DNA of 64,000 nt from Candidatus Poribacteria bacterium (GTDB lineage Bacteria; Poribacteria; WGA-4E; PCPOR2b), in assembly GCA_021295755.1 (NCBI GenBank), contig JAGWBT010000003.1:43129-107128 (forward strand), given 5' to 3'. Made by a program: the position numbers and the translations under genes. The notes below the pieces were generated by a model. The model searched no databases and was not told the DNA's origin. It worked only from the letters and a program-made list of their open reading frames with translations. Position 1 is the stretch's first letter, and each line of letters starts with the position of its first letter. Shown here piece by piece: positions 15,067 to 53,088 of the stretch.

Positions 15067-15129
15067 TCACGGATATCCGTGAATCCCTTTATTTTATGCC
15101 TTGATCTCTCTTTTGTGTCATGCTATAAT
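15067..15129 (+). promoter_or_regulatory. Candidate promoter of the bc-complex operon: perfect 16-bp palindrome TCACGGATATCCGTGA, then TTGATC, a 17-bp spacer and an extended -10 TGcTATAAT
   Basis: The palindrome centre lies about 50 bp upstream of the -10 start. The identical palindrome, at the same spacing from a TGcTATcAT -10, is found at 24718-24781. Confidence 0.5.
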
Positions 15130-24717: not shown

Positions 24718-24781
24718 TCACGGATATCCGTGACATCTTCTTTTTTAACCCTTGATTCCCCTTTTCGTATGCTGCTATCAT
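24718..24781 (+). promoter_or_regulatory. Candidate promoter of the cupredoxin/bd-like/cytochrome-c operon: palindrome TCACGGATATCCGTGA, then TTGATT, an 18-bp spacer and TGcTATcAT
   Basis: Identical 16-bp palindrome and near-identical geometry to 15067-15129. Confidence 0.5.
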
Positions 24782-24845: not shown

Positions 24846-25595
24846 ATGAAAACTGCAATAACTCTGGCCGCACTCAGCTTTATGCTCATCGCAAGCCTGA
24901 CGTATGCCGGCACAATCACCGGAACAGTTATGTATGATGGGGAGGCCCCAGCACGCCCAGCGATGCAAGCGACCAAAGACCAGCACTGTGTTGATTCGCT
25001 AAAAAATGGCAAATCTGAAGCCCTTGTAGTCTCTAAAGGCAAAGGAATTAAAAACGTCGTTGTCTACTTGCGGGCACGAGGCGCGAAGCCAACAATTCCC
25101 ACCAAAAATCCAGTCATGGATCAGGTCAACTGCATGTACTATCCGCATGTCCTCGTTGTGACCGCAGGCACCACAATAGATGTGACCTCCAGCGACCCGG
25201 TTGCCCATAACGTCCATTCTCATGCAACGAAGAACGAGGCACCGAATTGGCAAATACCGGGTCCCGGTAAAAAGTTGCCTCTGAAACTAGAAAAACGTGA
25301 AGCTATTAAATTCACCTGCGACATCCACAATTGGATGACGGGATATATCTTTGTTACGGACAATGACTATTACGCTGTGACCGGCTATAAGGACAAAGAC
25401 GGCAAATGGATCAGTTCCGATGCCTACGAAGGTTCGAGCGATACGGGTGCCTACATGATCAAAGATGTTCCCGCCGGCAAATACCGGGCTATAGCATGGC
25501 ACGAGGAGCTTGGAGAGACCAAAGCTCAGGTTGTCGAAGTTGCAGACGGAGACGTTGAGATTAACTTTACCAGTGCTGATTTCAAGAAGAAGTAA
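24846..25595 (+). CDS. Secreted cupredoxin-like (type-1 copper, plastocyanin/amicyanin-like) protein
   Basis: Signal peptide; copper-ligand pattern H (VAHNVHSH) ... C-x2-H-x2-M (TCDIHNWM). It is paralogous to 31850-32629. Confidence 0.6.
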   Translation: MKTAITLAALSFMLIASLTYAGTITGTVMYDGEAPARPAMQATKDQHCVDSLKNGKSEALVVSKGKGIKNVVVYLRARGAKPTIPTKNPVMDQVNCMYYPHVLVVTAGTTIDVTSSDPVAHNVHSHATKNEAPNWQIPGPGKKLPLKLEKREAIKFTCDIHNWMTGYIFVTDNDYYAVTGYKDKDGKWISSDAYEGSSDTGAYMIKDVPAGKYRAIAWHEELGETKAQVVEVADGDVEINFTSADFKKK

Positions 25596-25608
25596 CACTG
25601 CCGACGCA

Positions 25609-25640
25609 GAAACCGAGTTTTTTCTTCAAAACTCGGTTTC
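25609..25640 (+). terminator. Hairpin AGAAACCGAGTTTT-TTCTTC-AAAACTCGGTTTC
   Basis: 13-bp perfect stem, 14 nt after the stop codon; near-identical to 20876-20908. Confidence 0.5.
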
Positions 25641-25703
25641 TCTGAACGTTTTCCACTTTTTTTGACATGAAACCCGTGGGTCAGATACCAATGAACAAAT
25701 TGT

Positions 25704-25730: not shown

Positions 25731-25800
25731 GCCCTTGGTGTTTGGCATTTGCTTTTGGCATGAGCCTCGATATTAAGTCTGGAGTGACAGAGAAAAACCA

Positions 25801-27624
25801 ATGTATCTCACCAAACATCTCAATATGAGCCAGTCCAAAAACAGGCTATATTTTCTTCTCGCTCTGCTTGCTATGTATCTGCTGTTGACGGTTGCGACTG
25901 TCTTCGCTCAAGATGCGACTGACACAGAATACCGCCCCTTCCCGGGGATCGGCAGCCGTAACGCCGCATGGATCGCTGCCCAGCTGCATCTGTTGTTCGG
26001 TTCCTTCATCTTGGGTGTTCCGATGTTTGCGGTTGTCATTGAGTTTGTCGGGCTGAAAACGAAGGACAAACGGTATGACAAGATGGCGCAGGAGTTCATC
26101 AAACTGTGTATGGGAGCGTTCTCAACGACCGCGTTGATGGGCGGGGTACTTGTTTTTATCCTCATCTGGTGTTACCCGAAAGTGATGAACAAACTGTCAG
26201 GAATCTTCGGTCCTTCGATGATTTTCTACGTCATCCTGTTTTTTGGGGAGACCTTTACGCTCTATCTCTATTCTTACGGGTGGGATCGGATGCAGGGCAG
26301 GGTGTCGAAAATGTGGCACCTATTTCTCGGCGTGCTCCTGAACGTGTTCGGTACAGCGATTATGTTCGTCTCTAACGCTTGGCTGACATACCAGACAAGC
26401 CCAGCGATTATGGGCCCCAAACCCGACCACGAGGCAATTCCGCTTCATGATGAGTCGGGCGCATTCATCGGTACGCTGTGGCAGGCAATCAATAACTATA
26501 CGTGGATGCCTGTCAATATCCACCGTCTCATTGGGAATATAGCTTTCGGTGGTGCAATCGTTGGTGCCTATGCCGCCTTTCGGTTCCTTGCTGCCAAAAC
26601 GCAGGAAGACAGGGCGCATTACGACTGGATGGGATATACGGGCAATTTTATCGCACTGTGCGGATTGATTCCATTGCCATTCGCCGGATATTGGTTGGGA
26701 CGGGAAATCTATATGTTCAACCAAACGATGGGCATCAACATGATGGGAAGCCTCTTTTCTTGGCTGTTTATTATTCAAGCGGTGATGATTGGAGTGCTGT
26801 TCATCGGAGCGAATTACTATCTCTGGTCTGGCATGACCCGCATCGCAGGCGGCGAGGTATACGCTCGTTTTCGTCCCTACATGATCGCTATCATTGTTCT
26901 ATCTGTCGCAGTCTGGATGACGCCGCGCACACTCATTGTGACGCCTACGGAGTCGGCTGCAATGGGTGGGCCAAATCACCCGCTCGTTGGACTTTTCGGC
27001 TTGATGACAGCGAAGAACACGGTTGTCAATCTCATTATCTTGACCACCTTTCTCAGCTTTCTGTTTTACCGTCGATCCGGTAAAACACCGACAGTGAGTT
27101 GGCGCAAAGCGGGCAATATCGTCATCGCAGCGATTTTTGGACTGGCTGTCGCAGCGATTGTTACAATTGGGATCGTAGGGTTCAAGGTTAACACTGACTT
27201 CCGCGTCAATGTCCTAACGCCGATACAAGTGATGGTCGCGTTAGCTGTCATGGTTTTGGTAACGGTGATTGACTTGATTATGTATCGCAAAGCGATGCGT
27301 TCAAGCGAAATCAGTTGGGGGCAGATGACGGACCGGTCACAATATGTGCTGATTTTACTCGCCATTACCTTTACCTCATTGATGGGATTGATGGGCTACG
27401 CACGGTCGGGGCTTCGAGAGGCGTGGCATATTTTCGGTGTAATGCCCGACAAGTCGCCGGATGCACACACCCCGCTGCTTGCGGATGCCGTTAACATGAT
27501 TGCCGTTATTATAGTGATTTTCTTCGCTTTGGTAGGCTTTATTTTCTGGCTCGGTTTGTGGGGCGATAAGAAAAAAGAGGGACAGCCACCCGTTAAAGCA
27601 GAAGCCTCCGCAGGAGATGATTAA
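25801..27624 (+). CDS. Cytochrome bd oxidase subunit-I (CydA)-like polytopic membrane protein, enlarged (607 aa), with no adjacent cydB ('bd-like')
   Basis: By eye, it has a CydA-like helix 1 with a His (AAQLHLLFGSFILGVPMF) and a helix-5-like segment PVNIHRLIGNIAFGGAIVGAYAAFRFL. It has about 12 to 14 hydrophobic helices and a signal-like N-terminus. This is pattern recognition only. Confidence 0.5.
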   Translation: MYLTKHLNMSQSKNRLYFLLALLAMYLLLTVATVFAQDATDTEYRPFPGIGSRNAAWIAAQLHLLFGSFILGVPMFAVVIEFVGLKTKDKRYDKMAQEFIKLCMGAFSTTALMGGVLVFILIWCYPKVMNKLSGIFGPSMIFYVILFFGETFTLYLYSYGWDRMQGRVSKMWHLFLGVLLNVFGTAIMFVSNAWLTYQTSPAIMGPKPDHEAIPLHDESGAFIGTLWQAINNYTWMPVNIHRLIGNIAFGGAIVGAYAAFRFLAAKTQEDRAHYDWMGYTGNFIALCGLIPLPFAGYWLGREIYMFNQTMGINMMGSLFSWLFIIQAVMIGVLFIGANYYLWSGMTRIAGGEVYARFRPYMIAIIVLSVAVWMTPRTLIVTPTESAAMGGPNHPLVGLFGLMTAKNTVVNLIILTTFLSFLFYRRSGKTPTVSWRKAGNIVIAAIFGLAVAAIVTIGIVGFKVNTDFRVNVLTPIQVMVALAVMVLVTVIDLIMYRKAMRSSEISWGQMTDRSQYVLILLAITFTSLMGLMGYARSGLREAWHIFGVMPDKSPDAHTPLLADAVNMIAVIIVIFFALVGFIFWLGLWGDKKKEGQPPVKAEASAGDD

Positions 27625-27651
27625 CAATCAAACACAATCAGGACGAGAGCG

Positions 27652-29154
27652 ATGCAAAGAAGACTAATTAGAATTATCTGCCTAATTTTAATGGTTGTGA
27701 GTTTTATCGCCTATATCGCGAAAGCGCCGGCTTTCCCGATCGCTTCGGAAAACCTACTGCCGTGGTCTGCATGGTTTTTTATCTTTGCTTTGGCGAATAT
27801 CATACTCTGGCAGAGCGTGGTCAAACTCATGTCATTTGCGTTGATGGTCATCTGGTTCTATGCGTTTGCGGCCAGCATTGTTCCAGAAACATCGACTGCG
27901 ACGTTTGACCCTAACGCCGTAGACCGGACGCCGGATGCGTTTATTGAGGTTGGGGAGATAATCTTTAACGGGAAAGGAAAATGCAACACCTGCCATACAC
28001 TTGATCCGTCTGCGCCAAAAAGTCGCTGTCCCGATTTAACGGATATTGGCACTCGCGCTGCAACACGCCAACCGGGAATGACTGCGAAGGAGTATCTCAT
28101 CGAATCCACCTATGAACCCCACAAATTCCTTGTTCCCGGCTACAGCAACATTATGCCGCCCGTCTGGAAACCACCAATCAGTCTAACTGAGTTGGAAATC
28201 GAAACCGTCATTGCCTTCCTCCAGAGTCAGGGTGGAGAAGTGGATGTAACAAAGTTTGAGCCGCCCGTTGATATCGGAAGTGCGGAAGCCATAGCCGAGG
28301 AATTGCCACCCCTCCTCACAGGCGACGTAGAACGTGGTAAAAAGGTTTTTGTAGAGGGCGCGAAGTGTATCGCGTGTCACGCTGTCGCTGGTGTCGAGCA
28401 ACCTACCGGTCAAACGCTTGACGAAGGTGTTGAAGTTGTCGCTGCACCCGAATTGACGGATATCGCTGGGTTAAACAGTCTCCGGTATATTGAGGAATCC
28501 GTCCTATTACCGAATGCTCAAATTGTGAGCGGATACGGTTCCGTTACGGTGAAAACCGGCGGTGCCACAATTCAGGGAACGCTTGTTACGCAAGATAATG
28601 AGCAGATCAGTGTGCGTGTTAAGGACGTAGCCGGTAACGAAGAAGAGCACACCATTCTATTGAGCGAGCTCGATCCAGAGCCGATTGAAGAGTTGACAGA
28701 TCTGACAGGGAAAGGATACTTCTGGATTCAAGTAACGCTTGCCGACACGGGAGCCACCGTAAGTGGCGATCTCGTAGAAGAGGACGACGAAAACATTATA
28801 CTTCAGGCGGGTGGAGAGACGCAAACGGTTTCTAAGTCGAACGTGAAGGTTCAGGCGACATTGATTGACTTTGATGAGAATGTTATCGTTGGGGAATTGG
28901 TATCGGAAAATGAGGACGAAGTCATCTTAAACGTTGATGGTGAGGAGCAGATCATTGATACATTCGATATCGACGAAGGTCCGAACTACAGCCGTGCTTT
29001 CGGTAAGCGATTGGTTGTAACTTCCCCGATGCCGAATAACTTTCCGTTGTTGCTATCGGTTTCCGACATGAGCGATCTACTCGCCTATCTAGCAAGCTTA
29101 ACGGGTGCGACAGACGCGACAGCGGCTGAGGGAGCAGAGGCAACCGCCGAATAA
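27652..29154 (+). CDS. Diheme c-type cytochrome with an N-terminal membrane domain and three C-terminal beta-rich repeats of about 35 aa
   Basis: CNTCH and CIACH motifs. Internal repeats: TGATIQGTLVTQDNEQISVRVKD, TGATVSGDLVEEDDENIILQAGG and VIVGELVSENEDEVILNVDG. Confidence 0.7.
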   Translation: MQRRLIRIICLILMVVSFIAYIAKAPAFPIASENLLPWSAWFFIFALANIILWQSVVKLMSFALMVIWFYAFAASIVPETSTATFDPNAVDRTPDAFIEVGEIIFNGKGKCNTCHTLDPSAPKSRCPDLTDIGTRAATRQPGMTAKEYLIESTYEPHKFLVPGYSNIMPPVWKPPISLTELEIETVIAFLQSQGGEVDVTKFEPPVDIGSAEAIAEELPPLLTGDVERGKKVFVEGAKCIACHAVAGVEQPTGQTLDEGVEVVAAPELTDIAGLNSLRYIEESVLLPNAQIVSGYGSVTVKTGGATIQGTLVTQDNEQISVRVKDVAGNEEEHTILLSELDPEPIEELTDLTGKGYFWIQVTLADTGATVSGDLVEEDDENIILQAGGETQTVSKSNVKVQATLIDFDENVIVGELVSENEDEVILNVDGEEQIIDTFDIDEGPNYSRAFGKRLVVTSPMPNNFPLLLSVSDMSDLLAYLASLTGATDATAAEGAEATAE

Positions 29155-29170: not shown

Positions 29171-29950
29171 ATGCAAAGATTATCCCTTTTCACAAAATGC
29201 CTAATCATATTTGTTGTGCTTTGGCTCTTTTTAAGATTCTTCATCGGTGGTGTATGGTCTGTGCCGTTACCCGCTAGCGTGATCTCAATGTATTTGGGGC
29301 TTATTCTATTGGCGATTCTGGTTCACGTGTCCGTCGAAGATGACAGGTTTCGAGAATTTCTCCGTCCTGTCAAAGAGACCTTGGCTGATGAGGATAGGGG
29401 GACAAGGCGTACTGTGTTGTTTGTCCTTATTCCTTTGGTTATGCTTGGTTTAAGTTTTTCTAGGTTGTCAACAAAGGCAGATCCACCAGCCGCGCTGCGC
29501 ACTGCCCATCCGGCGCCACCTGATGAACTGACCTACCGCGACAAGGTTATCGGTCCCACGCAACAGGTGGAAAACCCCTTCCGGCACCTTGAAAAAGATG
29601 ACAAGGAAGCATTTAAGGCTCATGTAGAGAACGGACGGCGGGTCTATTATCAAAACTGTTTCTACTGCCACGGCGACGATCTTGATGGCGAAGGACATTT
29701 CGCTCACGGTTTCAACCCACCGCCTGCAAACTTTCAGGACCCTGGGATTATTCCGAACTTCCAGGAATCTTTCTTCTTCTGGCGTATTAGTAAGGGAGGC
29801 CCCGGTCTGCCGCCAGCTGCAACCCCGTGGGATTCTGCCATGCCGGTCTGGGAGGATCACCTGACAGAGGAGGAGATTTGGGATGTGATTCTCTTCCTGT
29901 CTGAATACACAGGGTATCGACCACGGACGTTTGGTGAAGCGGCGCATTAA
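29171..29950 (+). CDS. Membrane-anchored monoheme c-type cytochrome
   Basis: CFYCHG motif and two N-terminal hydrophobic helices. Confidence 0.7.
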   Translation: MQRLSLFTKCLIIFVVLWLFLRFFIGGVWSVPLPASVISMYLGLILLAILVHVSVEDDRFREFLRPVKETLADEDRGTRRTVLFVLIPLVMLGLSFSRLSTKADPPAALRTAHPAPPDELTYRDKVIGPTQQVENPFRHLEKDDKEAFKAHVENGRRVYYQNCFYCHGDDLDGEGHFAHGFNPPPANFQDPGIIPNFQESFFFWRISKGGPGLPPAATPWDSAMPVWEDHLTEEEIWDVILFLSEYTGYRPRTFGEAAH

Positions 29951-29972
29951 GATTGGAGCGGAAGAAAAAACA

Positions 29973-31715
29973 ATGAAAAAGCAATCCTATAATACAATGT
30001 TGATTTCAGTCGCCGGTCTTATTTTGTTGTTAGTGGTTTTTCCAATTACATCTCTTGCCCAAGGGAAACAGGCACCCGCAGCCTCCGAAGCAGGAAAGGC
30101 ACTCTATGATGATAAGTGTGCGCACTGCCACGGTATAGAGGGAGCGGGCGATGGATCTGCAGCAGAAAACCTGTTGCCAAGACCGAGGGATTTCACGCGG
30201 GGGCTTTACAAAATCCGTTCGACGGAAAGCGCTCAACTGCCCACCGATCAAGATCTCTTTGACATCATATCGAACGGTATGCCGGGATCCTCAATGCCAG
30301 CTTGGAGCGAACTGCTGAGTGAGGATCAACGGTGGCAACTCGTTGCCCATATCAAAACATTCCACGACGGCTTTGAAGGGGCTTCACCGCGGTTAATTGA
30401 TGTGTCGGGCAAAGTTCCATATTCTGAAGAGAGTGTCGCAAAAGGAAAAGAATTTTACACCACTCTTGGGTGTGTCGATTGCCACGGAGTGATTGGCAGA
30501 GGCGATGGTACGTCCGCCCCAGATCTGACCGATGAGTGGGGCTTTCGCACATGGCCCGCCAATCTATGGGAACAGTGGAATTATCGGGGCGGTGCGACAA
30601 CTGAGGATATTTTCAAACGATTCATCGGTGGTATTGCTGGCTCGCCGATGCCTTCGTTCATCTCAAGTTTTCGACTCGGTCTGACAGATGAGGAATCGGC
30701 TCGTATGAATGAGCTAGAACTCAAAATGGATGACGACGGTCTTTCAGAAGCGGAAGACGAAGAATACGCAGCGCTTGAGGAAAAGTTGTTTATGTTTGAA
30801 GACATCATGCTCAAGGTTGAAGAAGGCGAAGAACTTGAACCTGACGAACAGACTAAACTCGATACAGCCCTGAAGCCGATTTTTGAGAAAAGCTGGCACC
30901 TCGCAAATTATGTAAAATCCCTAGGACCCGAAGAGCGACCACCAGCGGCAGTCGGCGACAAAGTACTACGCTCACAATATCGCGCCGGTGCCTTGCCGGG
31001 CATAAACGATGAAGTGTGGAATGAAATTCAAGAAGCCAGTTATTTTCCGCTGGTCGGTCAAATTGTTATTGACCCTCGACAATTCAACCCCTCGATCGAT
31101 TCAATAATGGCAAAGTCGTTCTATAACGATAATGAAATTGCGTTTCTATTTACATGGGATGATCGGACGAAAACCCTTCCCCAGACAGACGACGAGACCG
31201 GAGAGACGGTTGAAGATGCTCTAGCAATTCAATTTCCGGTGAAGATTGCTGAAGGTCCGACGGATCCCAAACCTTACTTCATCTGGGGCGATCGGCTTCC
31301 CGTCTATCTCTGGAGTTGGAAGGTCGCTGAGCCGTCAACGGTGACAGAGATGACTGCGAAGGGGATCGATAAAGCGACTGTCCAAGCTGATCAAAGCCTA
31401 ATACAGGCTGAAGGGGTTTACGAAGATGGGCAATATCAACTATGGGTTAAAAGATCCCTCACAACCGATGACAAAAGAAATGACGTGCAGTTTACACCGG
31501 GCGTATTCATACCCATCGCTTTTTCTGCATGGGATGGCGCAAATGGTGATGTAAAAACGAAGCGAGCCATTTCAACGTGGTACACATTCGTCCTTGATCC
31601 CGTTCCATCGAACAAGCGATTTGTCTATCCGCCGCTGGTTGCCCTTATCTCCGTTGGCCTCCTTTTCGGCTTGAGAAGTAGTGTCAGGAGACGACAGAAT
31701 ACAGAAGAAGTTTAA
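29973..31715 (+). CDS. Diheme c-type cytochrome with a large C-terminal domain and a C-terminal TM anchor
   Basis: CAHCHG and CVDCHG motifs, a signal peptide, and a terminal hydrophobic helix YPPLVALISVGLLFGL. The start is the ATG at 29973 after GGAG; the listed ORF begins at an upstream TTG that overlaps the previous gene. Confidence 0.7.
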   Translation: MKKQSYNTMLISVAGLILLLVVFPITSLAQGKQAPAASEAGKALYDDKCAHCHGIEGAGDGSAAENLLPRPRDFTRGLYKIRSTESAQLPTDQDLFDIISNGMPGSSMPAWSELLSEDQRWQLVAHIKTFHDGFEGASPRLIDVSGKVPYSEESVAKGKEFYTTLGCVDCHGVIGRGDGTSAPDLTDEWGFRTWPANLWEQWNYRGGATTEDIFKRFIGGIAGSPMPSFISSFRLGLTDEESARMNELELKMDDDGLSEAEDEEYAALEEKLFMFEDIMLKVEEGEELEPDEQTKLDTALKPIFEKSWHLANYVKSLGPEERPPAAVGDKVLRSQYRAGALPGINDEVWNEIQEASYFPLVGQIVIDPRQFNPSIDSIMAKSFYNDNEIAFLFTWDDRTKTLPQTDDETGETVEDALAIQFPVKIAEGPTDPKPYFIWGDRLPVYLWSWKVAEPSTVTEMTAKGIDKATVQADQSLIQAEGVYEDGQYQLWVKRSLTTDDKRNDVQFTPGVFIPIAFSAWDGANGDVKTKRAISTWYTFVLDPVPSNKRFVYPPLVALISVGLLFGLRSSVRRRQNTEEV

Positions 31716-31849
31716 CCGCAACGTATGAGGGTAGACCATAACTCTTATTGCGAGAAGGTTCAAATATCTTGACTGTATTTGAAGCAGTCAAACATAATTG
31801 CCTCTCACTTATAACCTGTTCAAACAATAATTTCAAAAGGAGTTCAATC

Positions 31850-32629
31850 ATGAAAACCAAAGTTGTTACAATCCTAACCCTGCTCATTGCATGTGTTTAC
31901 GTTACCACTGCCATCGCTGCCGGTGGGGACGAAGAGGTCGAGTCGCTAGTCTTCCCGGCTTCCTATAAAGCAATGAGTGTCTCTAATGGTGGCACTATCA
32001 GCGGAATGGTAAAATTTGATGGCGCCGCGCCCGAGATGAAAAAACTCGAAATTACCAAAGACACACAAGTTTGTGGTAAAACCGACAAGCATGATGAGTC
32101 GATTGTTCTTGGCGAAGGAAATGGTTTGCAGAACACCATCGTCTATCTGATGGACATCTCATCAGGAGCCGATTTTCCAAGCGATGCCAAATACGAAATC
32201 GATCAGAAAGGCTGCCACTTTAAGCCACATGTGCGCCTCCTGCCGGTTGGAAAACGGCTGACCATGATCAATCCTGACAGGATCAACCATAACGTTCATA
32301 TCTTTAGTTCGGTGAATCCCGCATTTAATAAATCGCAGCCCGGAACTAGACGGAAGATGAACGTTAAGGCCATAAAGAAAGCCGAAGGGCCCGTACCAGT
32401 TAAATGCGATGTGCACGGCTGGATGAAGGCTTGGATTGCATACATTCCCCATCCGTATTTTACGGTCACCGACGAGAACGGGCAGTACACCCTTGAAAAT
32501 GTTCCGCCGGGAACCTACAAGTTAGGCTATTGGCAAGAAGCCTGTGGTTCAAATAAAGACGCACCCGTTTCGGTTACTGTTGAAGCTGGGGGAACAGTTG
32601 CACAAGACTTTACACTCGCGCTAAAATGA
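31850..32629 (+). CDS. Secreted cupredoxin-like protein, paralogue of 24846-25595
   Basis: Signal peptide; H (INHNVHIF) ... C-x2-H-x2-M (KCDVHGWM). An AAGGAG RBS precedes the ATG at 31850. Confidence 0.6.
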   Translation: MKTKVVTILTLLIACVYVTTAIAAGGDEEVESLVFPASYKAMSVSNGGTISGMVKFDGAAPEMKKLEITKDTQVCGKTDKHDESIVLGEGNGLQNTIVYLMDISSGADFPSDAKYEIDQKGCHFKPHVRLLPVGKRLTMINPDRINHNVHIFSSVNPAFNKSQPGTRRKMNVKAIKKAEGPVPVKCDVHGWMKAWIAYIPHPYFTVTDENGQYTLENVPPGTYKLGYWQEACGSNKDAPVSVTVEAGGTVAQDFTLALK

Positions 32630-34453: not shown

Positions 34454-35081
34454 ATGAATTGGCTGAATTTTCCTGCATGGCTTCCAGAGAATGTCTCAAC
34501 TTTTGGAAAAGGGGTCGATGACCTCTTTATCCTAATCTACTGGATTACCTCAATTGTATTTTTGGCTGTTATGGCGGTACTCATTGTCTTCATCATTAAG
34601 TGGAGTACATTGAAGGTAGCACAACCCTTGAAATCGTATGGACTGCTGCGACCACCGTCATTGTGTTTGGACTTGCAATGTTGAGTCTGCCCCAATGGAA
34701 CAAGATTAAATTCCCTTCCCAATTTCCCGGCGACCCCGGCGCTGTCGTTCAAGTGAGTGGGAAACAATTTAACTGGGATATGACTTATCCAGGACCTGAT
34801 GGCGAATGGGGCACTGACGATGACTTAGTACTTGAGAACCAGCTGCATGTCCCGGTTAACGAGATTGTGCATATCAGGCTCACATCTATTGATGTTATTC
34901 ATAGCTTCTTTGTCCCTCAACTCCGGCTCAAGCAGGATGCCCTTCCTGGAAGGTTTATAAACATGTGGTTTGAAGCGACGAAACCGGGTACGTATTTGGA
35001 CACTCCGGGATGCTTGGATACCTTACCGTCCACACGGCTGAGGACTACGCAGCGTGGACAAATGAACGGTGGGGAGAATAA
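34454..35081 (+). pseudogene. coxB: Heme-copper oxidase subunit II (coxB/ctaC-like) interrupted by two -1 frame changes and lacking the CuA Cys-x-E-x-Cys-Gly motif
   Basis: The TM1 segment (34454-34684) is in frame A. The TM2 and cupredoxin-fold part (STTLEIVWT, VSGKQFNWDM, DVIHSFFVPQL, KPGTY; 34600-about 34998) is in frame B. The C-terminus (FGHSGMLGYLTVHTAEDYAAWTNERWGE, ending with TAA at 35079) is in frame C. No Cys pair occurs in any frame. Confidence 0.6.
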
Positions 35082-35105
35082 TGAAAAGAAAGGAGTCAAT
35101 ATAGA

Positions 35106-36953
35106 ATGAATGATCACGCACATGAATCTCATGATCATCATCATGAAGAGAGTTTTGTTCGTAAATACCTCTTTTCGCTCGATCATAAAATGATTGGCAA
35201 GCAGTTCCTGATCTTTGGTCTGGTTATGTTCATGGTTGGGGGCGGGCTAGCACTGCTTTTCCGTTGGCAACTCGCATGGCCCGACAGGCCCCTTCCCATC
35301 ATTGGAGTCTCCAAAGCATATCAGGAAGAGGGCGAAGTCACAACCGCTGCAGACCGTAAATGGGAGGAACGGTTCGATGATGACAAAGAAACATGGATAG
35401 AGACGAACATGCCGGCCGGCGTAATAGACCCAGCATTTTATAATTCGCTGTTTACAATGCATGCGACTATCATGGTTTTCTTTGTGGTTGTGCCGCTACT
35501 TGTTGGCGCGTTTGGTAATTTCCTCATACCATTGATGATCGGGACCAGAGATATGGCTTTTCCTGTCCTGAATATGCTATCTTTCTGGTTCAACATGCTG
35601 GGAGGGGTTATCATGATGGCTGGGTTCTTCGTCCCCGGTGGGCACGCTGCTGCGGGCTGGACTGGATACGCACCGCTCTCTTCAGTCCCTGAGCTTAGCG
35701 GTGTAGATTGGGGACAGAATCTCTGGTGCATCAGCCTTATCGTCATGGGTATCTCCTCACTGATGGGGTCCATCAACTATATCACCACGATTATCAATAT
35801 GCGAGCACCGGGGATGACCTGGTTCCGTCTCCCACTTGCGATTTGGGCGCTCTTTATCGTCGCTATTCTTCTACTGCTTGCATTCCCTGTGGTCGCTTCT
35901 GCGCTCGCACTAATCCTCTTTGACCGAATGGCGGGAACGTCCTTCTTTTTGGCGGAAGGTGGTGGCGACTCGTTGCTGTGGCAACACCTCTTCTGGTTCT
36001 TCGCGCATCCAGAGGTTTATATCCTCATTCTGCCCGGCATGGGCATGGCATCAGAGATGCTTCCTGTCTTTGCCAGAAAGCCCATCTTCGGCTATAAATC
36101 AATGGTTTTTGCCATGATATCGATCGCCTTTCTCAGTTGGATTGTGTGGGGACACCACATGTTCCAGAGTGGGATGAACCCTGCGCTCGGAGCGAGTTTC
36201 ATGACCACAACCATGTTAATCGCTGTCCCTTCGGCAATCAAAACCTTTAACTGGATCGGCACCCTTCACCGTGCATCAATCCGATTCACGGTGCCAATGT
36301 TAAACACGTTGGCTTTTGTCTCGATGTTTGTTATCGGTGGTCTTAGCGGTATCTACATGGCGAACTCGCCAGTCGATATCTACATCCACGATACATACTA
36401 CATTGTGGCGCATATCCATTACGTTGTCTTCGGTGGAAGCGTCTTCGCTATCTTTGGCGGCATCTTTTACTGGTTCCCTAAGATGTTCGGGCGACACATG
36501 AATGCGACGCTTGGCAAGATTCATTTCTGGATCACCTTCCTCGCCTTTAACGGTGTCTTTTTCCCGATGCACATCCTCGGTGTTGGTGGACACATGCGAC
36601 GCATCGCCAACCCGACGCAGTATGAATTCTTACAACATATGCAAGGGATAAATGTGTTTATTACGATCAGTGCATTTATTTTAGGTGTGGCTCAAATTCT
36701 GCTGCTAGTCAACGTATTCTGGAGTATCTTCCGCGGGAAAGTCGCTGAACAGAATCCGTGGCAAGCAAATACTCTCGAGTGGCATGCACCAACGCCTGTC
36801 CCTCACGGCAACTTCGGAGCGATTCCGCAGGTGTATCACGGACCCTATGAGTACAGCGTTCCCGGTGCTGAAACGGACTGGACGCCGCAGACGGAGCCGA
36901 ACGGCGAATCAGTGCACGGTGAACCCGTCCCTGCCGGAGCTAGTGCGGATTAA
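35106..36953 (+). CDS. coxA: Heme-copper oxidase subunit I
   Basis: LFWFFAHPEVYILILPGMG, the TM6 ligands HH in HIHDTYYIVAHIHYV, 12 or more helices, and 615 aa. Confidence 0.92.
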   Translation: MNDHAHESHDHHHEESFVRKYLFSLDHKMIGKQFLIFGLVMFMVGGGLALLFRWQLAWPDRPLPIIGVSKAYQEEGEVTTAADRKWEERFDDDKETWIETNMPAGVIDPAFYNSLFTMHATIMVFFVVVPLLVGAFGNFLIPLMIGTRDMAFPVLNMLSFWFNMLGGVIMMAGFFVPGGHAAAGWTGYAPLSSVPELSGVDWGQNLWCISLIVMGISSLMGSINYITTIINMRAPGMTWFRLPLAIWALFIVAILLLLAFPVVASALALILFDRMAGTSFFLAEGGGDSLLWQHLFWFFAHPEVYILILPGMGMASEMLPVFARKPIFGYKSMVFAMISIAFLSWIVWGHHMFQSGMNPALGASFMTTTMLIAVPSAIKTFNWIGTLHRASIRFTVPMLNTLAFVSMFVIGGLSGIYMANSPVDIYIHDTYYIVAHIHYVVFGGSVFAIFGGIFYWFPKMFGRHMNATLGKIHFWITFLAFNGVFFPMHILGVGGHMRRIANPTQYEFLQHMQGINVFITISAFILGVAQILLLVNVFWSIFRGKVAEQNPWQANTLEWHAPTPVPHGNFGAIPQVYHGPYEYSVPGAETDWTPQTEPNGESVHGEPVPAGASAD

Positions 36954-48295: not shown

Positions 48296-50239
48296 ATGTT
48301 CAAAAAAATCTATGTACCTGTTGACAACTCGGACCATTCCGATGCGAGCGTCAATTTCGCTGTGGAGTTCGCCAAAAAATTTCAATCGCAACTCGTCGGC
48401 TCTCACGTCTATGCGGCGAAGATGCACGATGTGCGCTTCAAACAGATGGAGTACACGCTTCCCGAAGAATATCAGGATGAAGCCGAGCTTGAAAAACAGC
48501 GCCGGATTCATGACACATTGATTACGATGGGACTTCAGTTGATCTCCGATTCGTATTTGGAGGTCATGAAGAACAAGTGTGCTGAAAATGACATTCCCTT
48601 TGAAGCCAAGATGCCTGAGGGCAAACACTTCATCAAATTAGCAGAGGACATTCAGGCAAGCGATTATGACCTCGTGATCATGGGTGCCCTCGGTATGGGT
48701 GCCGTTAAGGATAGCCTACTCGGCGGCGTGGTTGAACGGGTTGTGCGACGTATTGAGACCGATACCCTTGTCGTCCGAAATATTGAGGAGATGCACGAAC
48801 AGAAGGGGCATATCCTCGTCGGGATCGACGGCAGCCCCGAATCCTTCGGCGGACTGAAGACGGCAATACGAATGGGCAAGGAGTTTGGTAGACAGGTTGA
48901 GGCAGTTGGTGTTTACGACCCGTATCTCCACTATGTGGTGTTCAACTCGGTTGTCAGCGTCCTAACCGAGCGAGCTTCCAAAACCTTCCGATTCAAAGAG
49001 CAGGAGCAGCTGCACGAGGAGGTCATTGACACCGGACTTGCCAAAATTTATCAATCCCATCTAGAGATTGCCCGGACCATCGCTAAGGAAGACCACAACT
49101 ACGACCTCAAAATTACCTTGCTAGACGGGAAAGCGTTTGAGAAGATCCTACAATATGCCCGAAAAACCGAACCGTGGATGTTAATGCTGGGCAGAATCGG
49201 TGTTCACAGCGATCCCGACATGGACATCGGCAGCAACACCGAAAACTTACTGCGCCTTGCTCCGTGTAATGTGTTCCTATCGAGCCAGCGGTATGTCCCA
49301 AAAGTTGATGTCAGGGCAGAGGAGACGGTGGTCTGGACACAGGAAGCCTTGGATCGGATGGCTAAGGCACCGCCGCAAGTGCAAGGTATCGCACGCACCG
49401 CTGTCCACCGTTTCGCCATTGAGCGTGGACACTCTGTGATTACGGAGAGCGTCATAGAGCAGGCAATGGACACCTTTATGCCGGGACGTTCGGCAGAACG
49501 GATGACCAAGGTTGCCAAAGAGATTGCAACGCAAACGGTTTTGGATTCCAATGCCATTAAGACCTACATCTGTGGGGATTGCGGCTATGCCGCCCGTGAC
49601 CAACAGCCGGTGAAATGTCCCGTTTGCGGCGTGGACGGAGATCAATTCCAGATGGTTGATAAAGATTCTCTCCAGAGGGTTGCGGATCAAGAGGGCGGCG
49701 TCAGTGAAGAACAGACCTTCGACGGTGTGCGTCTCCAATGGTCGGATCAAGCGAAAAAGGCTTTGCGCAATGTCCCAAGAGGATATATGCGTCGCAACGT
49801 CAAAGCGCGGATCGAAAAATCGGCACGTGTCCAAAAAATCGGTACAATCACCAACGAGTTTGCGATGCAGATTATCAACGAGAGTATGGATCAAGCTTCC
49901 GCTGTCCGTGAAGACGCGCCTGAACTGAAAGCTGTCGCGCAGTCCCGTGAGTCCACTGATACTTCCCAAGGAGAAATATTTGAAAGTCCGCTTGAATGGA
50001 CTTCAGATGCCCGTGAACGGCTGAACCTCGTGCCCGCTGGATTTATGCGGAACATCACGCAATCCCGTGTCGAGCAGCGAGCGCAGGAAGCCAACCTTAC
50101 AACAATCAACCTAGATTTCGCAGCGCAGGTGATTGAAGAAGGACGAAGTCTGGACAATGAGGTGCTTGGAACTTATTACCAGCAGGGTGAAGACACTACT
50201 GAAACGGAGAGCGATGAAGAGGAAGCGACGCAAGCGTAA
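48296..50239 (+). CDS. Multidomain protein: 2 x universal-stress-protein (USP) domains, a rubredoxin-like zinc ribbon and 3 x ChlB/BchB-C-terminal-like (PCP_red-like) domains
   Basis: Two USP-like halves (YVPVDNSDHS...; ILVGIDGSPES...). PCP_red-like repeats: VWTQEALDRMAKAPPQVQGIARTAVHRFAIERGHSVITESV, QWSDQAKKALRNVPRGYMRRNVKARIEKSAR and EWTSDARERLNLVPAGFMRNITQSRVEQRAQ. Zinc ribbon: CGDCGY...CPVCG. Confidence 0.6.
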   Translation: MFKKIYVPVDNSDHSDASVNFAVEFAKKFQSQLVGSHVYAAKMHDVRFKQMEYTLPEEYQDEAELEKQRRIHDTLITMGLQLISDSYLEVMKNKCAENDIPFEAKMPEGKHFIKLAEDIQASDYDLVIMGALGMGAVKDSLLGGVVERVVRRIETDTLVVRNIEEMHEQKGHILVGIDGSPESFGGLKTAIRMGKEFGRQVEAVGVYDPYLHYVVFNSVVSVLTERASKTFRFKEQEQLHEEVIDTGLAKIYQSHLEIARTIAKEDHNYDLKITLLDGKAFEKILQYARKTEPWMLMLGRIGVHSDPDMDIGSNTENLLRLAPCNVFLSSQRYVPKVDVRAEETVVWTQEALDRMAKAPPQVQGIARTAVHRFAIERGHSVITESVIEQAMDTFMPGRSAERMTKVAKEIATQTVLDSNAIKTYICGDCGYAARDQQPVKCPVCGVDGDQFQMVDKDSLQRVADQEGGVSEEQTFDGVRLQWSDQAKKALRNVPRGYMRRNVKARIEKSARVQKIGTITNEFAMQIINESMDQASAVREDAPELKAVAQSRESTDTSQGEIFESPLEWTSDARERLNLVPAGFMRNITQSRVEQRAQEANLTTINLDFAAQVIEEGRSLDNEVLGTYYQQGEDTTETESDEEEATQA

Positions 50240-50278
50240 AATCACGCCTTGAATGTCAATTTAGATCGGAGTTTGCCA

Positions 50279-51867: not shown

Positions 51868-51887
51868 CGTATAAATGGAGTCAACCA

Positions 51888-52388: not shown

Positions 52389-52470
52389 GAGTTGATCATA
52401 GGGAAAGCGAAAGGGATTTTTCTCACACAAGTTGCGATAGACCCGCCATCGTATCCTATTTCACTCACTT

Positions 52471-52980: not shown

Positions 52981-53088
52981 GGCTGAAATTCACGTCAAAA
53001 CATGTGGACTGGTGTAATCAAAAACTCTGCGTTCTCCGTGTCTCTGCGGTGAAATACATGACAGCATATCAAGTTTTAAGGAACACTC

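What the first reader, a model, noticed from the sequence alone, without database searches (positions are those of the whole stretch)
25801..27624. Enlarged CydA-like 'cytochrome bd-like' protein with no CydB, embedded among cupredoxins and three c-type cytochromes
By eye this 607-aa polytopic protein carries CydA-like helix-1 and helix-5 His contexts. There is no cydB next to it. Instead it sits in an operon bounded by two paralogous type-1-copper-like proteins and followed by di-, mono- and di-heme cytochromes c, behind a candidate regulated promoter. Lone bd-like homologues have been proposed, but not biochemically established, as novel terminal oxidases in some nitrite oxidisers. This operon could encode a non-canonical cytochrome-c-linked oxidase or reductase.
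Basis: partly seen in the sequence, partly recalled or inferred. Interest (0 to 1): 0.7.

Follow-up and report, generated by a model that had tools for sequence, protein, structure and literature searches.

The report
Poribacterial bd-like (OR-N2) cytochrome operon
This is a real member of an already described but never purified family of "cytochrome bd-like" respiratory complexes (type OR-N2), here in a sponge-symbiont (Poribacteria) genome, so it is a known kind of enzyme whose activity is still unproven.

Summary
ORF 25801-27624 (607 aa) matches CydA (PF01654, E 1.5e-18), but only over the N-terminal heme-binding helices. No cydB and no second cydA-like gene lies in the 64-kb window. It is flanked by two paralogous cupredoxins and followed by di-, mono- and di-heme cytochromes c. 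The last of these also carries an EbdC/NxrC-like domain.

This is not a new kind of system. The residue signature, helix count and operon content match the OR-N2 subfamily of Murali, Gennis and Hemp (2021). That subfamily is the "bd-like oxidase" cluster known from Nitrospira, Nitrospina, Kuenenia and Manganitrophus. That paper already lists Poribacteria as having the OR-N family.

The four-gene core is conserved in 62 of 62 evaluable genome loci from a dozen or more phylum-level groups.

The most likely function is a cytochrome c/cupredoxin-fed O2 reductase. This remains unproven.

New details found here:
- A perfect 16-bp palindrome is shared by the promoters of this operon and the upstream Rieske/cytochrome b operon, and is conserved across Poribacteria.
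- In 37 of 57 loci the module sits directly upstream of COX2-COX1.
- An AhbD/NirJ-like radical SAM gene set is often adjacent.

The parts
24718..24733 (.). Perfect 16-bp palindrome TCACGGATATCCGTGA. Candidate binding site for a regulator of the operon, centred about 62 bp upstream of the predicted transcription start.
   Evidence: There are exactly two copies in the 64-kb window; 0.39 are expected even when 3 mismatches are allowed. The core is conserved at this position in 11 Poribacteria loci while the flanking sequence diverges.
24752..24781 (+). Promoter-like TTGATT-18-TATCAT (with TG) upstream of the first cupredoxin gene.
   Evidence: Found by the consensus scan. The same layout, palindrome then about 18 nt then TTGATC-17-TATAAT, is present at 15067-15129. 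The scan as a whole is not enriched over shuffles (15 sites against 10.3 +/- 3.6).
24846..25595 (+). Cupredoxin 1 (249 aa): signal peptide, type-1-copper-like domain (C158-x2-H161-x2-M164) and a C-terminal prealbumin/CarboxypepD_reg-like domain. A copy at this upstream position is specific to Poribacteria.
   Evidence: Pfam Copper-bind scores E 0.002, below the cutoff. PDB alignments to blue copper domains run through the Cu loop. It is a paralogue of 31748-32629. An upstream copy is present in 14 of 14 Poribacteria loci and 0 of 60 others.
25608..25641 (+). Hairpin with a 14-bp stem (AGAAACCGAGTTTT / AAAACTCGGTTTCT) between cupredoxin 1 and the CydA-like gene. Possible terminator or attenuator.
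   Evidence: Read from the sequence. Conserved in L001, L002, L003 and L011, with an inverted loop in L001. Not flagged by the terminator scan.
25801..27624 (+). CydA-like subunit, OR-N2 type (607 aa): an N-terminal signal peptide or anchor plus about 13 transmembrane helices, and no CxxCH motif. Key residues are H63, Y143, E150, Y157, Y159, H173, H241, M402/N406, S536 and W542. H393 and H543 are further invariant His residues.
   Evidence: helix count; the top 10 Foldseek hits are all CydA; reference residues.
27652..29154 (+). Membrane-anchored diheme cytochrome c (500 aa): about 3 N-terminal transmembrane segments, CNTCH at 111 and CIACH at 239.
   Evidence: C111, C114, H115 and M168 are invariant in 68 of 68 homologues. 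It is syntenic in 62 of 62 loci.
29171..29950 (+). Membrane-anchored monoheme cytochrome c (259 aa): 3 N-terminal transmembrane segments, CFYCH at 163, M224.
29931..31715 (+). Fusion protein (594 aa from the TTG start; the real start is probably the ATG at 29973). It has an N-terminal signal or anchor, a diheme c domain (CAHCH at 63, CVDCH at 181), an EbdC/NxrC-like (EB_dh) domain and a C-terminal transmembrane anchor.
   Evidence: Pfam EB_dh scores 62.5 bits against a 33.3-bit cutoff, and TIGR03477 gives E 3e-22. The diheme domain matches PDB 6h5l_B at E 2e-46, and the C-terminal domain matches NxrC 7b04_C and EbdC 2ivf_C.
31748..32629 (+). Cupredoxin 2 (293 aa from the TTG start; the real start is probably the ATG at 31850). 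Ligand set H181, C220-x2-H223-x2-M226, plus a CarboxypepD_reg-like domain.
   Evidence: ligands invariant in 51 of 51. A downstream cupredoxin is present in 44 of 57 evaluable loci.
15067..15082 (.). Second copy of the same palindrome, at the head of the Rieske / cytochrome b6 / subunit IV / octaheme cytochrome c operon (about 15079-20806). Context: candidate co-regulation.
   Evidence: The operon genes were identified.
34600..36953 (+). COX2 and COX1 of an A-type heme-copper oxidase, followed by CtaA, CtaB and two COX3 genes up to 41764. Context: in many phyla this operon directly follows the OR-N2 module.
   Evidence: COX1 lies downstream on the same strand in 37 of 57 evaluable loci.
48296..54390 (+). 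Context, link unproven: a gene set of Usp+PCP_red protein, Usp, Mrp/ApbC-type Fe-S carrier, small PCP_red protein, CopD-like protein and an AhbD/NirJ-family radical SAM-SPASM enzyme fused to a BchB C-terminal-like domain. The same set lies directly beside the OR-N2 module in other phyla.

Best explanation
The locus encodes an OR-N2-type 'cytochrome bd-like' membrane complex of a Candidatus Poribacteria bacterium. Family membership is near certain.

The most likely mechanism is a cytochrome c/cupredoxin:O2 oxidoreductase that works without CydB and without a quinol site. I put this at about one chance in two. The proposed path is:
1. The co-regulated Rieske/cytochrome b complex oxidises quinol and reduces periplasmic carriers. 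These are its own octaheme cytochrome c, the 124-aa monoheme cytochrome c at 22730-23104, and the two cupredoxins.
2. The carriers feed the five c-hemes of the three membrane-anchored cytochromes. The EbdC-like domain of the third may also take part.
3. Electrons pass to a low-spin heme b held by His241 (helix 5) and probably Met402 of the CydA-like subunit.
4. They then reach a high-spin heme held by His63 (helix 1), near the periplasmic face, where O2 is reduced.
5. Protons arrive from the cytoplasm through the retained part of the bd proton channel (E150, H173, Y143). This would generate membrane potential by charge separation, as in cytochrome bd.

Shown here: the homology, the conserved residues, the gene content, the synteny and the shared operator-like site. 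Inferred: every cofactor, the direction of electron flow and the substrate.
For: **CydA homology.** Homology is limited to the four-helix heme core plus helix 5. Foldseek on a low-confidence model still returns only CydA chains as its top 10 hits.

**OR-N2 signature.** H63, Y143, E150, Y157, Y159, H173, H241, M402/N406, S536 and W542 reproduce the residues and spacings of the published OR-N2 reference. For example, H269 to M430 is 161 residues in the reference and H241 to M402 is 161 here; E190 to H213 is 23 and E150 to H173 is 23. These residues are invariant or nearly so in 81 sequences.

**Synteny.** The core four genes are syntenic in 62 of 62 evaluable loci from Poribacteria, Acidobacteriota, Gemmatimonadota, Methylomirabilota/Rokubacteria, Chloroflexi, Myxococcota, Nitrospinae and others.

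**Lone cydA homologue.** It is the only cydA homologue within +/-10 kb in 79 of 80 loci, and the window has no cydB.

**Periplasmic electron entry.** All c-heme motifs and their Met ligands are conserved. All three cytochromes have membrane anchors.

**Link to the bc complex.** An identical palindrome sits at the same distance from the promoters of this operon and of the bc-complex operon, and is conserved in divergent Poribacteria. This argues that the complex acts downstream of a quinol:cytochrome c oxidoreductase. In N. moscoviensis the NIDE0901-like bd-like gene is likewise clustered and highly co-expressed with a complex III (PMC6606698).

**Literature.** OR-N2 is treated as a putative cytochrome c-oxidising O2 reductase.
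Against: - No member of the OR-N family has been purified or assayed. I found no such report up to 2026.
- The E. coli E99 equivalent is Tyr143. By spacing to the published table, the heme b595 ligand E445 is Ser536. The three-heme site of cytochrome bd is therefore not fully conserved.
- The same cluster exists in strictly anaerobic anammox bacteria, which do not respire O2.
- A complete aa3-type oxidase operon lies 2 kb downstream, so an additional cytochrome c oxidase is not obviously needed.
- The Met heme-b ligand of EbdC/NxrC aligns with Trp452 here, and is Met in only 28 of 65 homologues. The 'periplasmic cytochrome b' label for the third subunit is therefore uncertain.
- The AlphaFold model is poor (mean pLDDT 54), so no geometry supports the cofactor assignment.
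Confidence: 0.55

Rival explanations
1. The complex is a quinone-interacting electron-transfer module rather than an oxidase. It would act as an 'alternative complex III'-like cytochrome c (or cupredoxin):quinone oxidoreductase. It could feed the adjacent aa3 oxidase, or in nitrite oxidisers run in reverse to reduce quinone.
For: This was proposed for the Nitrospina, Nitrospira and anammox clusters (PMC3578206; PMC6606698). In 37 of 57 loci the module (usually with a cupredoxin) sits directly upstream of COX2-COX1 on the same strand. Genes for alternative complex III are often placed upstream of an oxidase in the same way (PMC12342949). This reading would also explain the cluster's presence in anaerobic anammox bacteria.
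Against: No recognisable quinol site exists. The Pfam match stops before the Q-loop, and the published analyses report that the quinol-binding residues are missing. No NrfD/PsrC-type or cytochrome b-type quinone subunit is in the operon. In Poribacteria the operon shares its operator-like site with a complete Rieske/cytochrome b complex that already does this job. The O2-site ligand H63 and the channel residues E150 and H173 are invariant or nearly so.
Confidence: 0.2
2. The complex reduces an acceptor other than O2, such as NO, nitrite or peroxide. It would use the CydA-like heme site as a detoxifying or anaerobic-respiratory reductase fed by cytochrome c.
For: Canonical cytochrome bd has roles in NO and peroxide detoxification (literature summarised in PMC10839748). 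The cluster occurs in anaerobic anammox bacteria next to nitrite oxidoreductase genes. The diheme domain of the third subunit is closely related to chain B of PDB 6h5l, at E 2e-46. That entry is a hydroxylamine-oxidoreductase-type enzyme structure from Kuenenia. I recall chain B as its diheme cytochrome c redox partner, but that is from memory and was not confirmed by a tool.
Against: The family is most abundant in aerobic lineages and is usually beside genes for aerobic respiration (COX, CtaA/B). There are no nitrogen-oxide genes in the window. There is no experimental support.
Confidence: 0.15
3. It is subunit I of an ordinary cytochrome bd quinol oxidase whose cydB partner is encoded elsewhere in the genome. 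This is the annotation that public records give its homologues ('cytochrome ubiquinol oxidase subunit I').
For: Database names of homologues. Poribacteria are also listed as having a canonical qOR2-type bd oxidase somewhere in their genomes.
Against: Only the N-terminal half matches CydA. It has about 13-14 helices instead of 9. The E99 equivalent is Tyr. The gene is invariably followed by three membrane cytochromes c in 62 of 62 loci and is never seen beside a second cydA-like gene, except in 1 of 80 loci. I did not scan the related loci for cydB with a CydB profile.
Confidence: 0.02
4. It is the membrane anchor and electron outlet of a periplasmic nitrite oxidoreductase (NXR), as suggested for Nitrospira and anammox bacteria.
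For: The third subunit is an 'alternative NxrC' by homology. That role was proposed for this subunit in Nitrospira.
Against: No molybdopterin or NxrA/B-like gene is in the 64-kb window. None of the homologues searched for in the related loci is an NXR gene, although NXR genes were not looked for there directly. The module occurs in many phyla that are not known to oxidise nitrite.
Confidence: 0.03

Closest known systems
OR-N2 subfamily of the cytochrome bd superfamily (Murali, Gennis and Hemp 2021). This covers the 'bd-like oxidase' clusters of Nitrospira (NIDE0901-like and the bd-like_3/alt_NxrC_2 cluster), Nitrospina gracilis, the Kuenenia stuttgartiensis nxr region and Manganitrophus TO_1.
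   Same: About 14 predicted helices, no quinol site and no CxxCH in the CydA-like subunit. The residue signature is the same: H19 equivalent kept, E99 replaced by Y, E107 kept, then Y-x-Y and H126, H186 and M393 equivalents. The operon has two membrane cytochromes c plus a diheme-c/EbdC-like 'alternative NxrC' with a transmembrane anchor, and cupredoxin genes nearby.
   Different: The host is a sponge-associated heterotroph lineage with no NXR genes in the window. There is an extra upstream cupredoxin found only in Poribacteria. There is no OR-N1 partner, even though a petA/B/D-type operon lies beside it. Trp replaces the EbdC-type Met ligand. The operon sits between a bc complex and an aa3 oxidase.
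Canonical cytochrome bd quinol oxidase (CydAB: E. coli, Geobacillus, Mycobacterium structures)
   Same: Homologous helices 1-5, with the helix-1 and helix-5 heme His ligands and part of the proton channel (E107 and H126 equivalents).
   Different: No CydB, no Q-loop or quinol site, and E99 and probably E445 not conserved. There are about four extra helices. The presumed electron donor is cytochrome c or cupredoxin instead of quinol.
Alternative complex III - caa3 oxidase gene clusters
   Same: A multi-heme, membrane-anchored module encoded directly upstream of COX2-COX1 in many genomes (PMC12342949).
   Different: No sequence relationship. The module has no molybdopterin-like, Fe-S or NrfD-type quinol subunits. 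The resemblance is one of gene placement only.
cbb3-type cytochrome c oxidase electron-entry subunits (CcoO/CcoP)
   Same: The cytochromes c of the operon and the octaheme cytochrome c of the neighbouring bc operon give partial matches to CcoP/CcoO (FixO) models.
   Different: All scores are far below the family cutoffs, and no CcoN catalytic subunit is present.

Membership tests
Cytochrome bd superfamily, subunit I (PF01654) | Significant profile match above the curated cutoff | tested here: met
   67 bits against a 26.2-bit cutoff, E 1.5e-18, residues 53-305. PDB CydA hits at E about 1e-5. The top 10 Foldseek hits are all CydA, from a low-confidence model.
Cytochrome bd superfamily, subunit I (PF01654) | Helix-1 His (E. 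coli H19) and helix-5 His (E. coli H186) heme ligands | tested here: met
   H63 aligns with Geobacillus H21, and H241 aligns with the helix-5 His of 9r2g_A. They are conserved in 79 of 81 and 81 of 81 sequences.
Canonical quinol-oxidising cytochrome bd (qOR, CydAB) | Q-loop and quinol-binding region between helices 6 and 7 | tested here: not met
   The profile match ends at position 239 of 418, and there is no similarity beyond helix 5. The literature reports the same for the family.
Canonical quinol-oxidising cytochrome bd (qOR, CydAB) | Adjacent cydB (subunit II) | tested here: not met
   No CydB among the non-shadow ORFs of at least 150 aa in the 64-kb window. The rest of the genome was not available.
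Canonical quinol-oxidising cytochrome bd (qOR, CydAB) | Both proton-channel glutamates (E99, E107) and the E445 heme b595 ligand | tested here: not met
   Y143 aligns with Geobacillus E101, and E150 with E108. The E445 equivalent is S536, inferred only by spacing to the published OR-N2 row, so that part is less certain.
OR-N2 subfamily | Residue signature of the reference (H99, Y183, E190, Y197, Y199, H213, H269, M430/N434, S563, W569) | tested here: met
   The window protein has H63, Y143, E150, Y157, Y159, H173, H241, M402/N406, S536 and W542, with identical spacings of 7, 7, 9, 23, 161, 4 and 6. A 12-residue Poribacteria-specific loop insertion accounts for the difference between H173 and H241. 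No direct alignment with the reference sequence itself was possible.
OR-N2 subfamily | About 14 predicted transmembrane helices | tested here: met
   Hydropathy and the secondary structure of the model give an N-terminal signal or anchor helix plus 13-14 helices. The exact count in the 268-310 region is ambiguous.
OR-N2 subfamily | Operon with several cytochromes c and an EbdC homologue; often no second cydA-like gene | tested here: met
   The arrangement is conserved in 62 of 62 loci, and the gene is the lone cydA homologue in 79 of 80.
OR-N2 subfamily | O2 reductase activity with cytochrome c as donor (the proposed function of the family) | not testable with these tools
   No biochemical data exist for any member.
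OR-N1 subfamily | E107 replaced by Gly; H186 to M393 equivalents 178 residues apart; encoded with petA/B/D | tested here: not met
   E150 is retained (81 of 81) and the spacing is 161, not 178. A pet operon is nearby but belongs to a separate transcription unit 4 kb upstream.
OR-C family | CxxCH heme c motifs within subunit I | tested here: not met
   No CxxCH in the 607-aa protein.
Heme-copper-like CuB site proposed for the Nitrospira NIDE0901 protein | A cluster of conserved His residues able to bind copper near the active-site heme | tested here: inconclusive
   Two further His residues (H393, H543) are invariant in 81 of 81 sequences and are predicted to face the periplasmic side. H273 is His in 64 of 81.
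Type-1 (blue) copper cupredoxins | His ... Cys-x2-His-x2-Met ligand set in a cupredoxin fold | tested here: met
   CDIHNWM in cupredoxin 1 and CDVHGWM in cupredoxin 2, aligned to the copper loops of 9cck_A and 5fc9_A. The ligands are invariant in 51 of 51 homologues. The Pfam Copper-bind score is below the cutoff (18.9 against 21.2 bits), so the fold rests on weak similarity.
EbdC/NxrC heme b subunits (type II DMSO-reductase gamma) | EB_dh domain with Met and Lys axial heme b ligands | tested here: inconclusive
   The domain is present (62.5 bits against a 33.3-bit cutoff). The position aligned with the Met of NxrC/EbdC is W452 here, and is Met in only 28 of 65 homologues. The Lys position is K544, split K 32 and R 31 among homologues. 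Which residues are the EbdC ligands (M108, K201) is recalled from the literature, not checked here.

The most novel reading that the evidence does not exclude
The OR-N2 module may be one part of a larger conserved respiratory unit, and its catalytic heme may be a modified tetrapyrrole made by a dedicated maturation system.

An AhbD/NirJ-family radical SAM-SPASM enzyme fused to a BchB C-terminal (tetrapyrrole-capping) domain lies in the window at 48296-54390. It is accompanied by two more PCP_red-domain proteins and an Mrp-type Fe-S carrier. The same set lies immediately beside the OR-N2 genes in Gemmatimonadota, Acidobacteriota, NC10/Methylomirabilales, Latescibacterota, Rhodothermaceae and Fibrobacteria, in different orders and orientations.

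If this enzyme tailors a heme for the CydA-like active site, it would explain how a bd-type site works without CydB. It would also point to a new heme-modification pathway.
Probability: 0.12. Interest if true: 0.8.

Novelty: new member of a known kind. Interest (0 to 1): 0.4.

Why it matters
OR-N 'bd-like' complexes are thought to be the main terminal oxidases of Nitrospira, Nitrospina and Manganitrophus, yet nobody has shown what they do. This locus adds nothing categorically new. It does show the complete module in an aerobic heterotroph symbiont lineage, sitting between a bc complex and an aa3 oxidase.

The comparison made here shows that the same four genes are kept together in at least a dozen phylum-level groups. 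In most cases they are next to aerobic respiration genes. That favours a general respiratory role over a nitrite-oxidation-specific one. It also points to cultivable carriers, for example among Gemmatimonadota, as places to test the activity.

The shared operator-like palindrome gives a concrete handle on regulation. The recurrent AhbD/NirJ-like radical SAM neighbours give a testable lead on cofactor maturation.

Tried and rejected
- **Structure prediction.** An alignment of 28 Poribacteria sequences gave a poor model (mean pLDDT 54, pTM 0.54). I used it only for helix counting and a fold check, not for distances between conserved His residues.
- **Second protein-database search.** A search with a 14-sequence profile returned essentially the same Poribacteria set and added no diversity.
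- **Genome-locus scan.** It worked with 14 sequences.
- **Nitrospirota relative.** I looked at the genomic context of P0274 (about 34% identity), hoping to find the Nitrospira or Manganitrophus cluster. It is a lone paralogue beside a NuoF-like gene and was not informative.
- **Promoter and terminator scan.** It found no more sites than shuffled sequence. The promoter argument rests on the conserved palindrome instead.
- **NosFY-like copper transporter.** I considered this for the ABC-2 transporter at 32644-34409. NCBIfam places it with DrrAB/NodIJ-type exporters, with no copper link.
- **PBP gene.** I first suspected a frameshift in the periplasmic-binding-protein gene. It is an in-frame stop plus a missing N-terminal part.
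- **Literature.** The original Nitrospira paper (PMC2922143) is not held. No paper in the library links PF08369 or AhbD/NirJ-like enzymes to bd-like oxidases.
Full report
**What is there.** The ORF at 25801-27624 (+) is real and encodes 607 aa. It matches the Pfam CydA model PF01654 well above the curated cutoff (67 bits against 26.2, E 1.5e-18). Only residues 53-305 align, to profile positions 3-239 of 418. A sequence search of solved structures finds only CydA chains (5doq_A and 9r2g_A, E about 1e-5). In those alignments His63 pairs with the helix-1 heme ligand (Geobacillus H21, E. coli H19). Tyr143 and Glu150 pair with the two proton-channel glutamates. His241 pairs with the helix-5 His. 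The protein has no CxxCH motif. Hydropathy and the secondary structure of an AlphaFold model give an N-terminal signal or anchor helix followed by 13-14 membrane helices. The model itself is poor (mean pLDDT 54). A Foldseek search with it nevertheless returns cytochrome bd subunit I chains as all ten best hits.

**The operon.** All genes are on the + strand.
- 24846-25595: a cupredoxin-like protein.
- 25801-27624: the CydA-like gene.
- 27652-29154: a diheme cytochrome c with about three N-terminal membrane segments.
- 29171-29950: a monoheme cytochrome c with three membrane segments.
- 29931-31715: a protein with a diheme c domain, an EbdC/NxrC-like EB_dh domain (62.5 bits against a 33.3-bit cutoff; TIGR03477 E 3e-22) and a C-terminal membrane anchor.
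- 31748-32629: a second cupredoxin-like protein.

The two cupredoxins are paralogues (31% identity over 235 aa, E 3e-29). Both carry a His plus Cys-x2-His-x2-Met ligand set that aligns with the copper loops of known blue copper domains. The set is invariant in 51 of 51 homologues. Their Pfam Copper-bind score is below the cutoff, so the fold assignment is weak and the motif assignment is strong. The diheme domain of the third cytochrome is closely related to chain B of PDB 6h5l (E 2e-46). That entry is a Kuenenia hydroxylamine-oxidoreductase-type structure. I recall chain B as its diheme cytochrome c partner, but this was not confirmed by a tool. The TTG starts listed for 29931 and 31748 are probably too far upstream; ATG codons at 29973 and 31850 precede typical signal sequences.

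**No CydB.** Every non-shadow ORF of at least 150 aa in the 64-kb window was scanned with Pfam, and none is CydB or a second CydA. tblastn of the protein against the window finds only itself. The rest of the genome is not available.

**Organism and neighbourhood.** The closest proteins (up to 95% identity) and loci come from Candidatus Poribacteria metagenome-assembled genomes of about 6 Mb. GC content is even across the region. The window is a respiratory island.
- 15079-20806: Rieske protein, cytochrome b6, subunit IV and a 1041-aa octaheme cytochrome c.
- 22730-23104: a 124-aa cytochrome c.
- 24846-32629: the bd-like operon.
- 32644-34409: an ABC-2 exporter.
- 34600-41764: COX2, COX1, CtaA, CtaB and two COX3 genes.
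- From 42968: succinate dehydrogenase and fumarase genes.

In other Poribacteria the bc operon, the small cytochrome c and the bd-like operon are contiguous. In this lineage a dicarboxylate symporter and a decayed binding-protein gene are inserted between them.

**Comparison with what is known.** Murali, Gennis and Hemp (bioRxiv 10.1101/2021.01.16.426971; ISME J 2021) divide the cytochrome bd superfamily into three families.
- qOR has a quinol site.
- OR-C has heme c motifs in subunit I.
- OR-N has neither.

Within OR-N, the OR-N1 and OR-N2 subfamilies have 14 helices. [quoted passage not shown] Their table of conserved residues for the OR-N2 reference lists H99, Y183, E190, Y197, Y199, H213, H269, M430/N434, S563 and W569. 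The window protein has H63, Y143, E150, Y157, Y159, H173, H241, M402/N406, S536 and W542. The spacings are the same: 7, 7, 9, 23, 161, 4 and 6. The single exception is a 12-residue loop insertion between H173 and H241, which the alignment shows to be Poribacteria-specific. OR-N1 differs, with Gly in place of E107 and a spacing of 178 rather than 161. I therefore file the protein under OR-N2. The caveat is that I could not align the reference sequences themselves.

The same paper already marks Poribacteria as carrying the OR-N family. The cluster type is a bd-like oxidase with 14 helices, a mono- and a diheme cytochrome c, an alternative NxrC and two cupredoxins. It was described earlier for Kuenenia, Nitrospira and Nitrospina (PMC3578206; PMC6606698) and as TO_1 in Manganitrophus. 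Reviews up to 2025 still call the function putative. A search for later biochemical work found none.

**How general the module is.**
- The exhaustive representative search found 193 clusters (50% identity level) with E <= 1e-30 and 1,053 with E <= 0.001.
- The scan of one genome per species found at least 593 genomes with a relative.
- The best 80 loci come from Poribacteria, Latescibacterota, Acidobacteriota, Gemmatimonadota, Methylomirabilota/Rokubacteria/NC10, Chloroflexi, Myxococcota, Nitrospinae, Rhodothermaceae, Fibrobacteria and others.
- tblastn with the window's proteins shows the order cydA-like, diheme c, monoheme c, diheme-c/EbdC-like in 62 of 62 loci with enough downstream sequence.
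- A cupredoxin follows in 44 of 57 loci.
- COX2-COX1 follow on the same strand within 10 kb in 37 of 57. This includes 19 of 19 Gemmatimonadota, 6 of 6 Rokubacteria and 3 of 3 Methylomirabilota.
- The upstream cupredoxin is found only in Poribacteria (14 of 14 against 0 of 60).
- A second cydA-like gene within +/-10 kb occurs in only 1 of 80 loci. A co-encoded CydAA' partner is therefore not a feature of this clade.
- Across 81 sequences, H173, H241, H393, H543, E81, E150, E302, E384, K405, M402, M528, M531 and the motif Y274-D-W-M277 are invariant. H63 is His in 79 of 81.

**Regulation.** The generic promoter scan is not enriched over shuffles. However, the perfect palindrome TCACGGATATCCGTGA occurs exactly twice in the window. 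One copy is at 24718-24733, upstream of the first cupredoxin gene. The other is at 15067-15082, at the head of the Rieske/cytochrome b operon. In both places it is followed after about 18 nt by TTGAT(T/C), then 17-18 nt, then TAT(C/A)AT. This puts its centre about 62 bp upstream of the predicted start, a position typical of activator sites. That last point is inference.

The 14-nt core is conserved at the bd-like operon in 11 Poribacteria loci. It is conserved at both operons in all seven loci that reach both, down to 71% protein identity, while the surrounding sequence diverges. No copy precedes the aa3 operon. It also suggests that the bd-like operon and the bc complex are switched together.

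A conserved hairpin with a 14-bp stem (25608-25641) separates the first cupredoxin gene from the CydA-like gene. The first cupredoxin may therefore be partly uncoupled from the rest of the operon.

**Most likely mechanism.** I judge family membership near certain and the activity uncertain. The best-supported reading is the published one: a cytochrome c (or cupredoxin):O2 oxidoreductase.

Points in favour:
- H63 is near-invariant (79 of 81), and E150 and H173 are invariant.
- The quinol site is lost.
- Five conserved c-hemes sit on membrane-anchored subunits at the periplasmic face.
- The operon appears co-regulated with a quinol:cytochrome c oxidoreductase.
- The module is prevalent in aerobic lineages.
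- Literature reports that the homologous genes are among the most highly expressed in Nitrospira and Manganitrophus, which lack or barely use other oxidases.

Points against:
- There is no biochemistry for any member.
- The bd three-heme ligand set is incompletely conserved.
- The cluster is present in anaerobic anammox bacteria.
- A full aa3 oxidase lies next door.
- The position of the EbdC/NxrC Met heme ligand is Trp452 here and is Met in only 28 of 65 homologues. The third subunit may therefore not be a conventional cytochrome b.

Rivals:
- A quinone-linked, complex-III-like module. Its placement upstream of COX genes fits. The lack of any quinone subunit and the co-regulated bc complex do not.
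- A reductase for NO, nitrite or peroxide.
- An NXR anchor. No NXR genes are present here.
- An ordinary CydA with a distant CydB. This is essentially excluded.

**An unexpected neighbour set.** At 48296-54390 the window encodes:
- a Usp protein with three PCP_red (BchB C-terminal) domains and a rubredoxin-like domain;
- a second Usp protein;
- an Mrp/ApbC-type Fe-S carrier (MrpORP model, E 6e-79);
- a small PCP_red protein;
- a CopD-like membrane protein;
- a radical SAM-SPASM enzyme fused to a PCP_red domain.

The best matches of the radical SAM enzyme are all tetrapyrrole-modifying enzymes: AhbD heme b synthase at E 4e-97, NirJ2 at 3e-90, then NirJ, NirJ1 and AhbC. All are below the equivalog cutoffs.

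The same set lies immediately upstream of the OR-N2 genes in Gemmatimonadota and NC10/Methylomirabilales. It lies immediately downstream in Acidobacteriota, Rhodothermaceae and Fibrobacteria. In a Latescibacterota genome it is on the opposite strand.

The reverse test was a metagenome scan seeded with the radical SAM enzyme. It found a cydA-like gene in 24 of 80 loci. Several further loci carried COX/CtaA/CtaB genes. Several long loci had neither. The association is therefore frequent but not obligatory.

It may simply reflect oxygen-independent heme supply for respiratory complexes. A dedicated heme-tailoring role for the bd-like active site is the most novel reading I cannot exclude. I give it about 12%. 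I found no paper that mentions this link.

**Verdict.** The system is a new member of a known, named, biochemically uncharacterised family, in a phylum already listed as having it. Interest is moderate (0.4). It rests on the still-open function of OR-N complexes and on the small new leads found here, not on novelty of kind.

Noticed in passing
window 15067-15082 and 24718-24733; also L004, L005, L008, L009, L010, L026, L080 (two copies each): The perfect 16-bp palindrome TCACGGATATCCGTGA occurs only twice in the window. Each copy is about 18 nt upstream of a -35-like TTGAT(C/T), at the heads of the Rieske/cytochrome b operon and the bd-like operon. It is conserved at both sites across divergent Poribacteria and is absent before the aa3 oxidase operon. 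This is a candidate shared regulator site; the regulator is unknown.
   Followed up: partly
window 48296-54390; L020 4494-9975; many of L012-L079 and L084-L163: A gene set recurs directly beside the OR-N2 module in several phyla. It consists of a Usp+PCP_red protein, an Mrp-type Fe-S carrier, a small PCP_red protein and an AhbD/NirJ-family radical SAM-SPASM enzyme fused to a BchB C-terminal-like domain. In the reverse scan, 24 of 80 loci seeded on the radical SAM enzyme carry a cydA-like gene. The set also occurs without the module. It may have a role in heme supply or heme modification.
   Followed up: partly
L020, L021, L030, L032, L033, L035-L036, L038-L042, L044, L047, L048 and others; window 32644-36953: In 37 of 57 evaluable loci the OR-N2 module, usually followed by a cupredoxin, is directly followed on the same strand by COX2-COX1 of an A-type heme-copper oxidase. 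In Poribacteria a DrrAB/NodIJ-like ABC-2 exporter is inserted between them. I did not find this placement mentioned in the papers read.
   Followed up: partly
window 31270-31300 (residues 447-457 of the 594-aa protein) and residue K544: In the EbdC/NxrC-like domain, the position aligned with the Met heme-b ligand of NxrC/EbdC is Trp452 in Poribacteria. Among homologues it is variable (M 28, W 11, G 10, F 9 of 65). The neighbouring P448-Y449-F450 and G453 are nearly invariant. Heme b binding by this domain is therefore not assured.
   Followed up: partly
window 17681-20806: The cytochrome c subunit of the Rieske/cytochrome b operon is a 1041-aa protein with eight CxxCH motifs. It gives partial matches to CcoO/FixO, CcoP and SoxX-type domains. 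This is an unusually large c-type subunit for a bc complex.
   Followed up: no
window 23209-24195: A Leu/Ile/Val-type periplasmic binding protein gene has an in-frame stop at 23482-23484 and lacks about 100 residues of the N-terminal half of the domain. It is probably a pseudogene. It and the dicarboxylate symporter (20983-22620) are insertions relative to other Poribacteria, where the bc and bd-like operons are contiguous.
   Followed up: partly
window 25608-25641: A hairpin with a 14-bp stem lies between the first cupredoxin gene and the CydA-like gene. It is conserved in close relatives, and L001 has the loop in inverted orientation. It may be a terminator or attenuator.
   Followed up: partly
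L024 6795-8702 (- strand): One Myxococcota locus carries a second, divergent cydA-like gene (43% identity) on the opposite strand next to the OR-N2 module. It is the only one of 80 loci with a paralogue nearby.
   Followed up: no
L081-L083 8001-9914: A Nitrospirota/Manganitrophaceae bd-like paralogue (about 34% identical to the window protein) stands alone next to a NuoF-like gene, with no cytochromes c nearby. The family therefore also has members outside the four-gene module.
   Followed up: no
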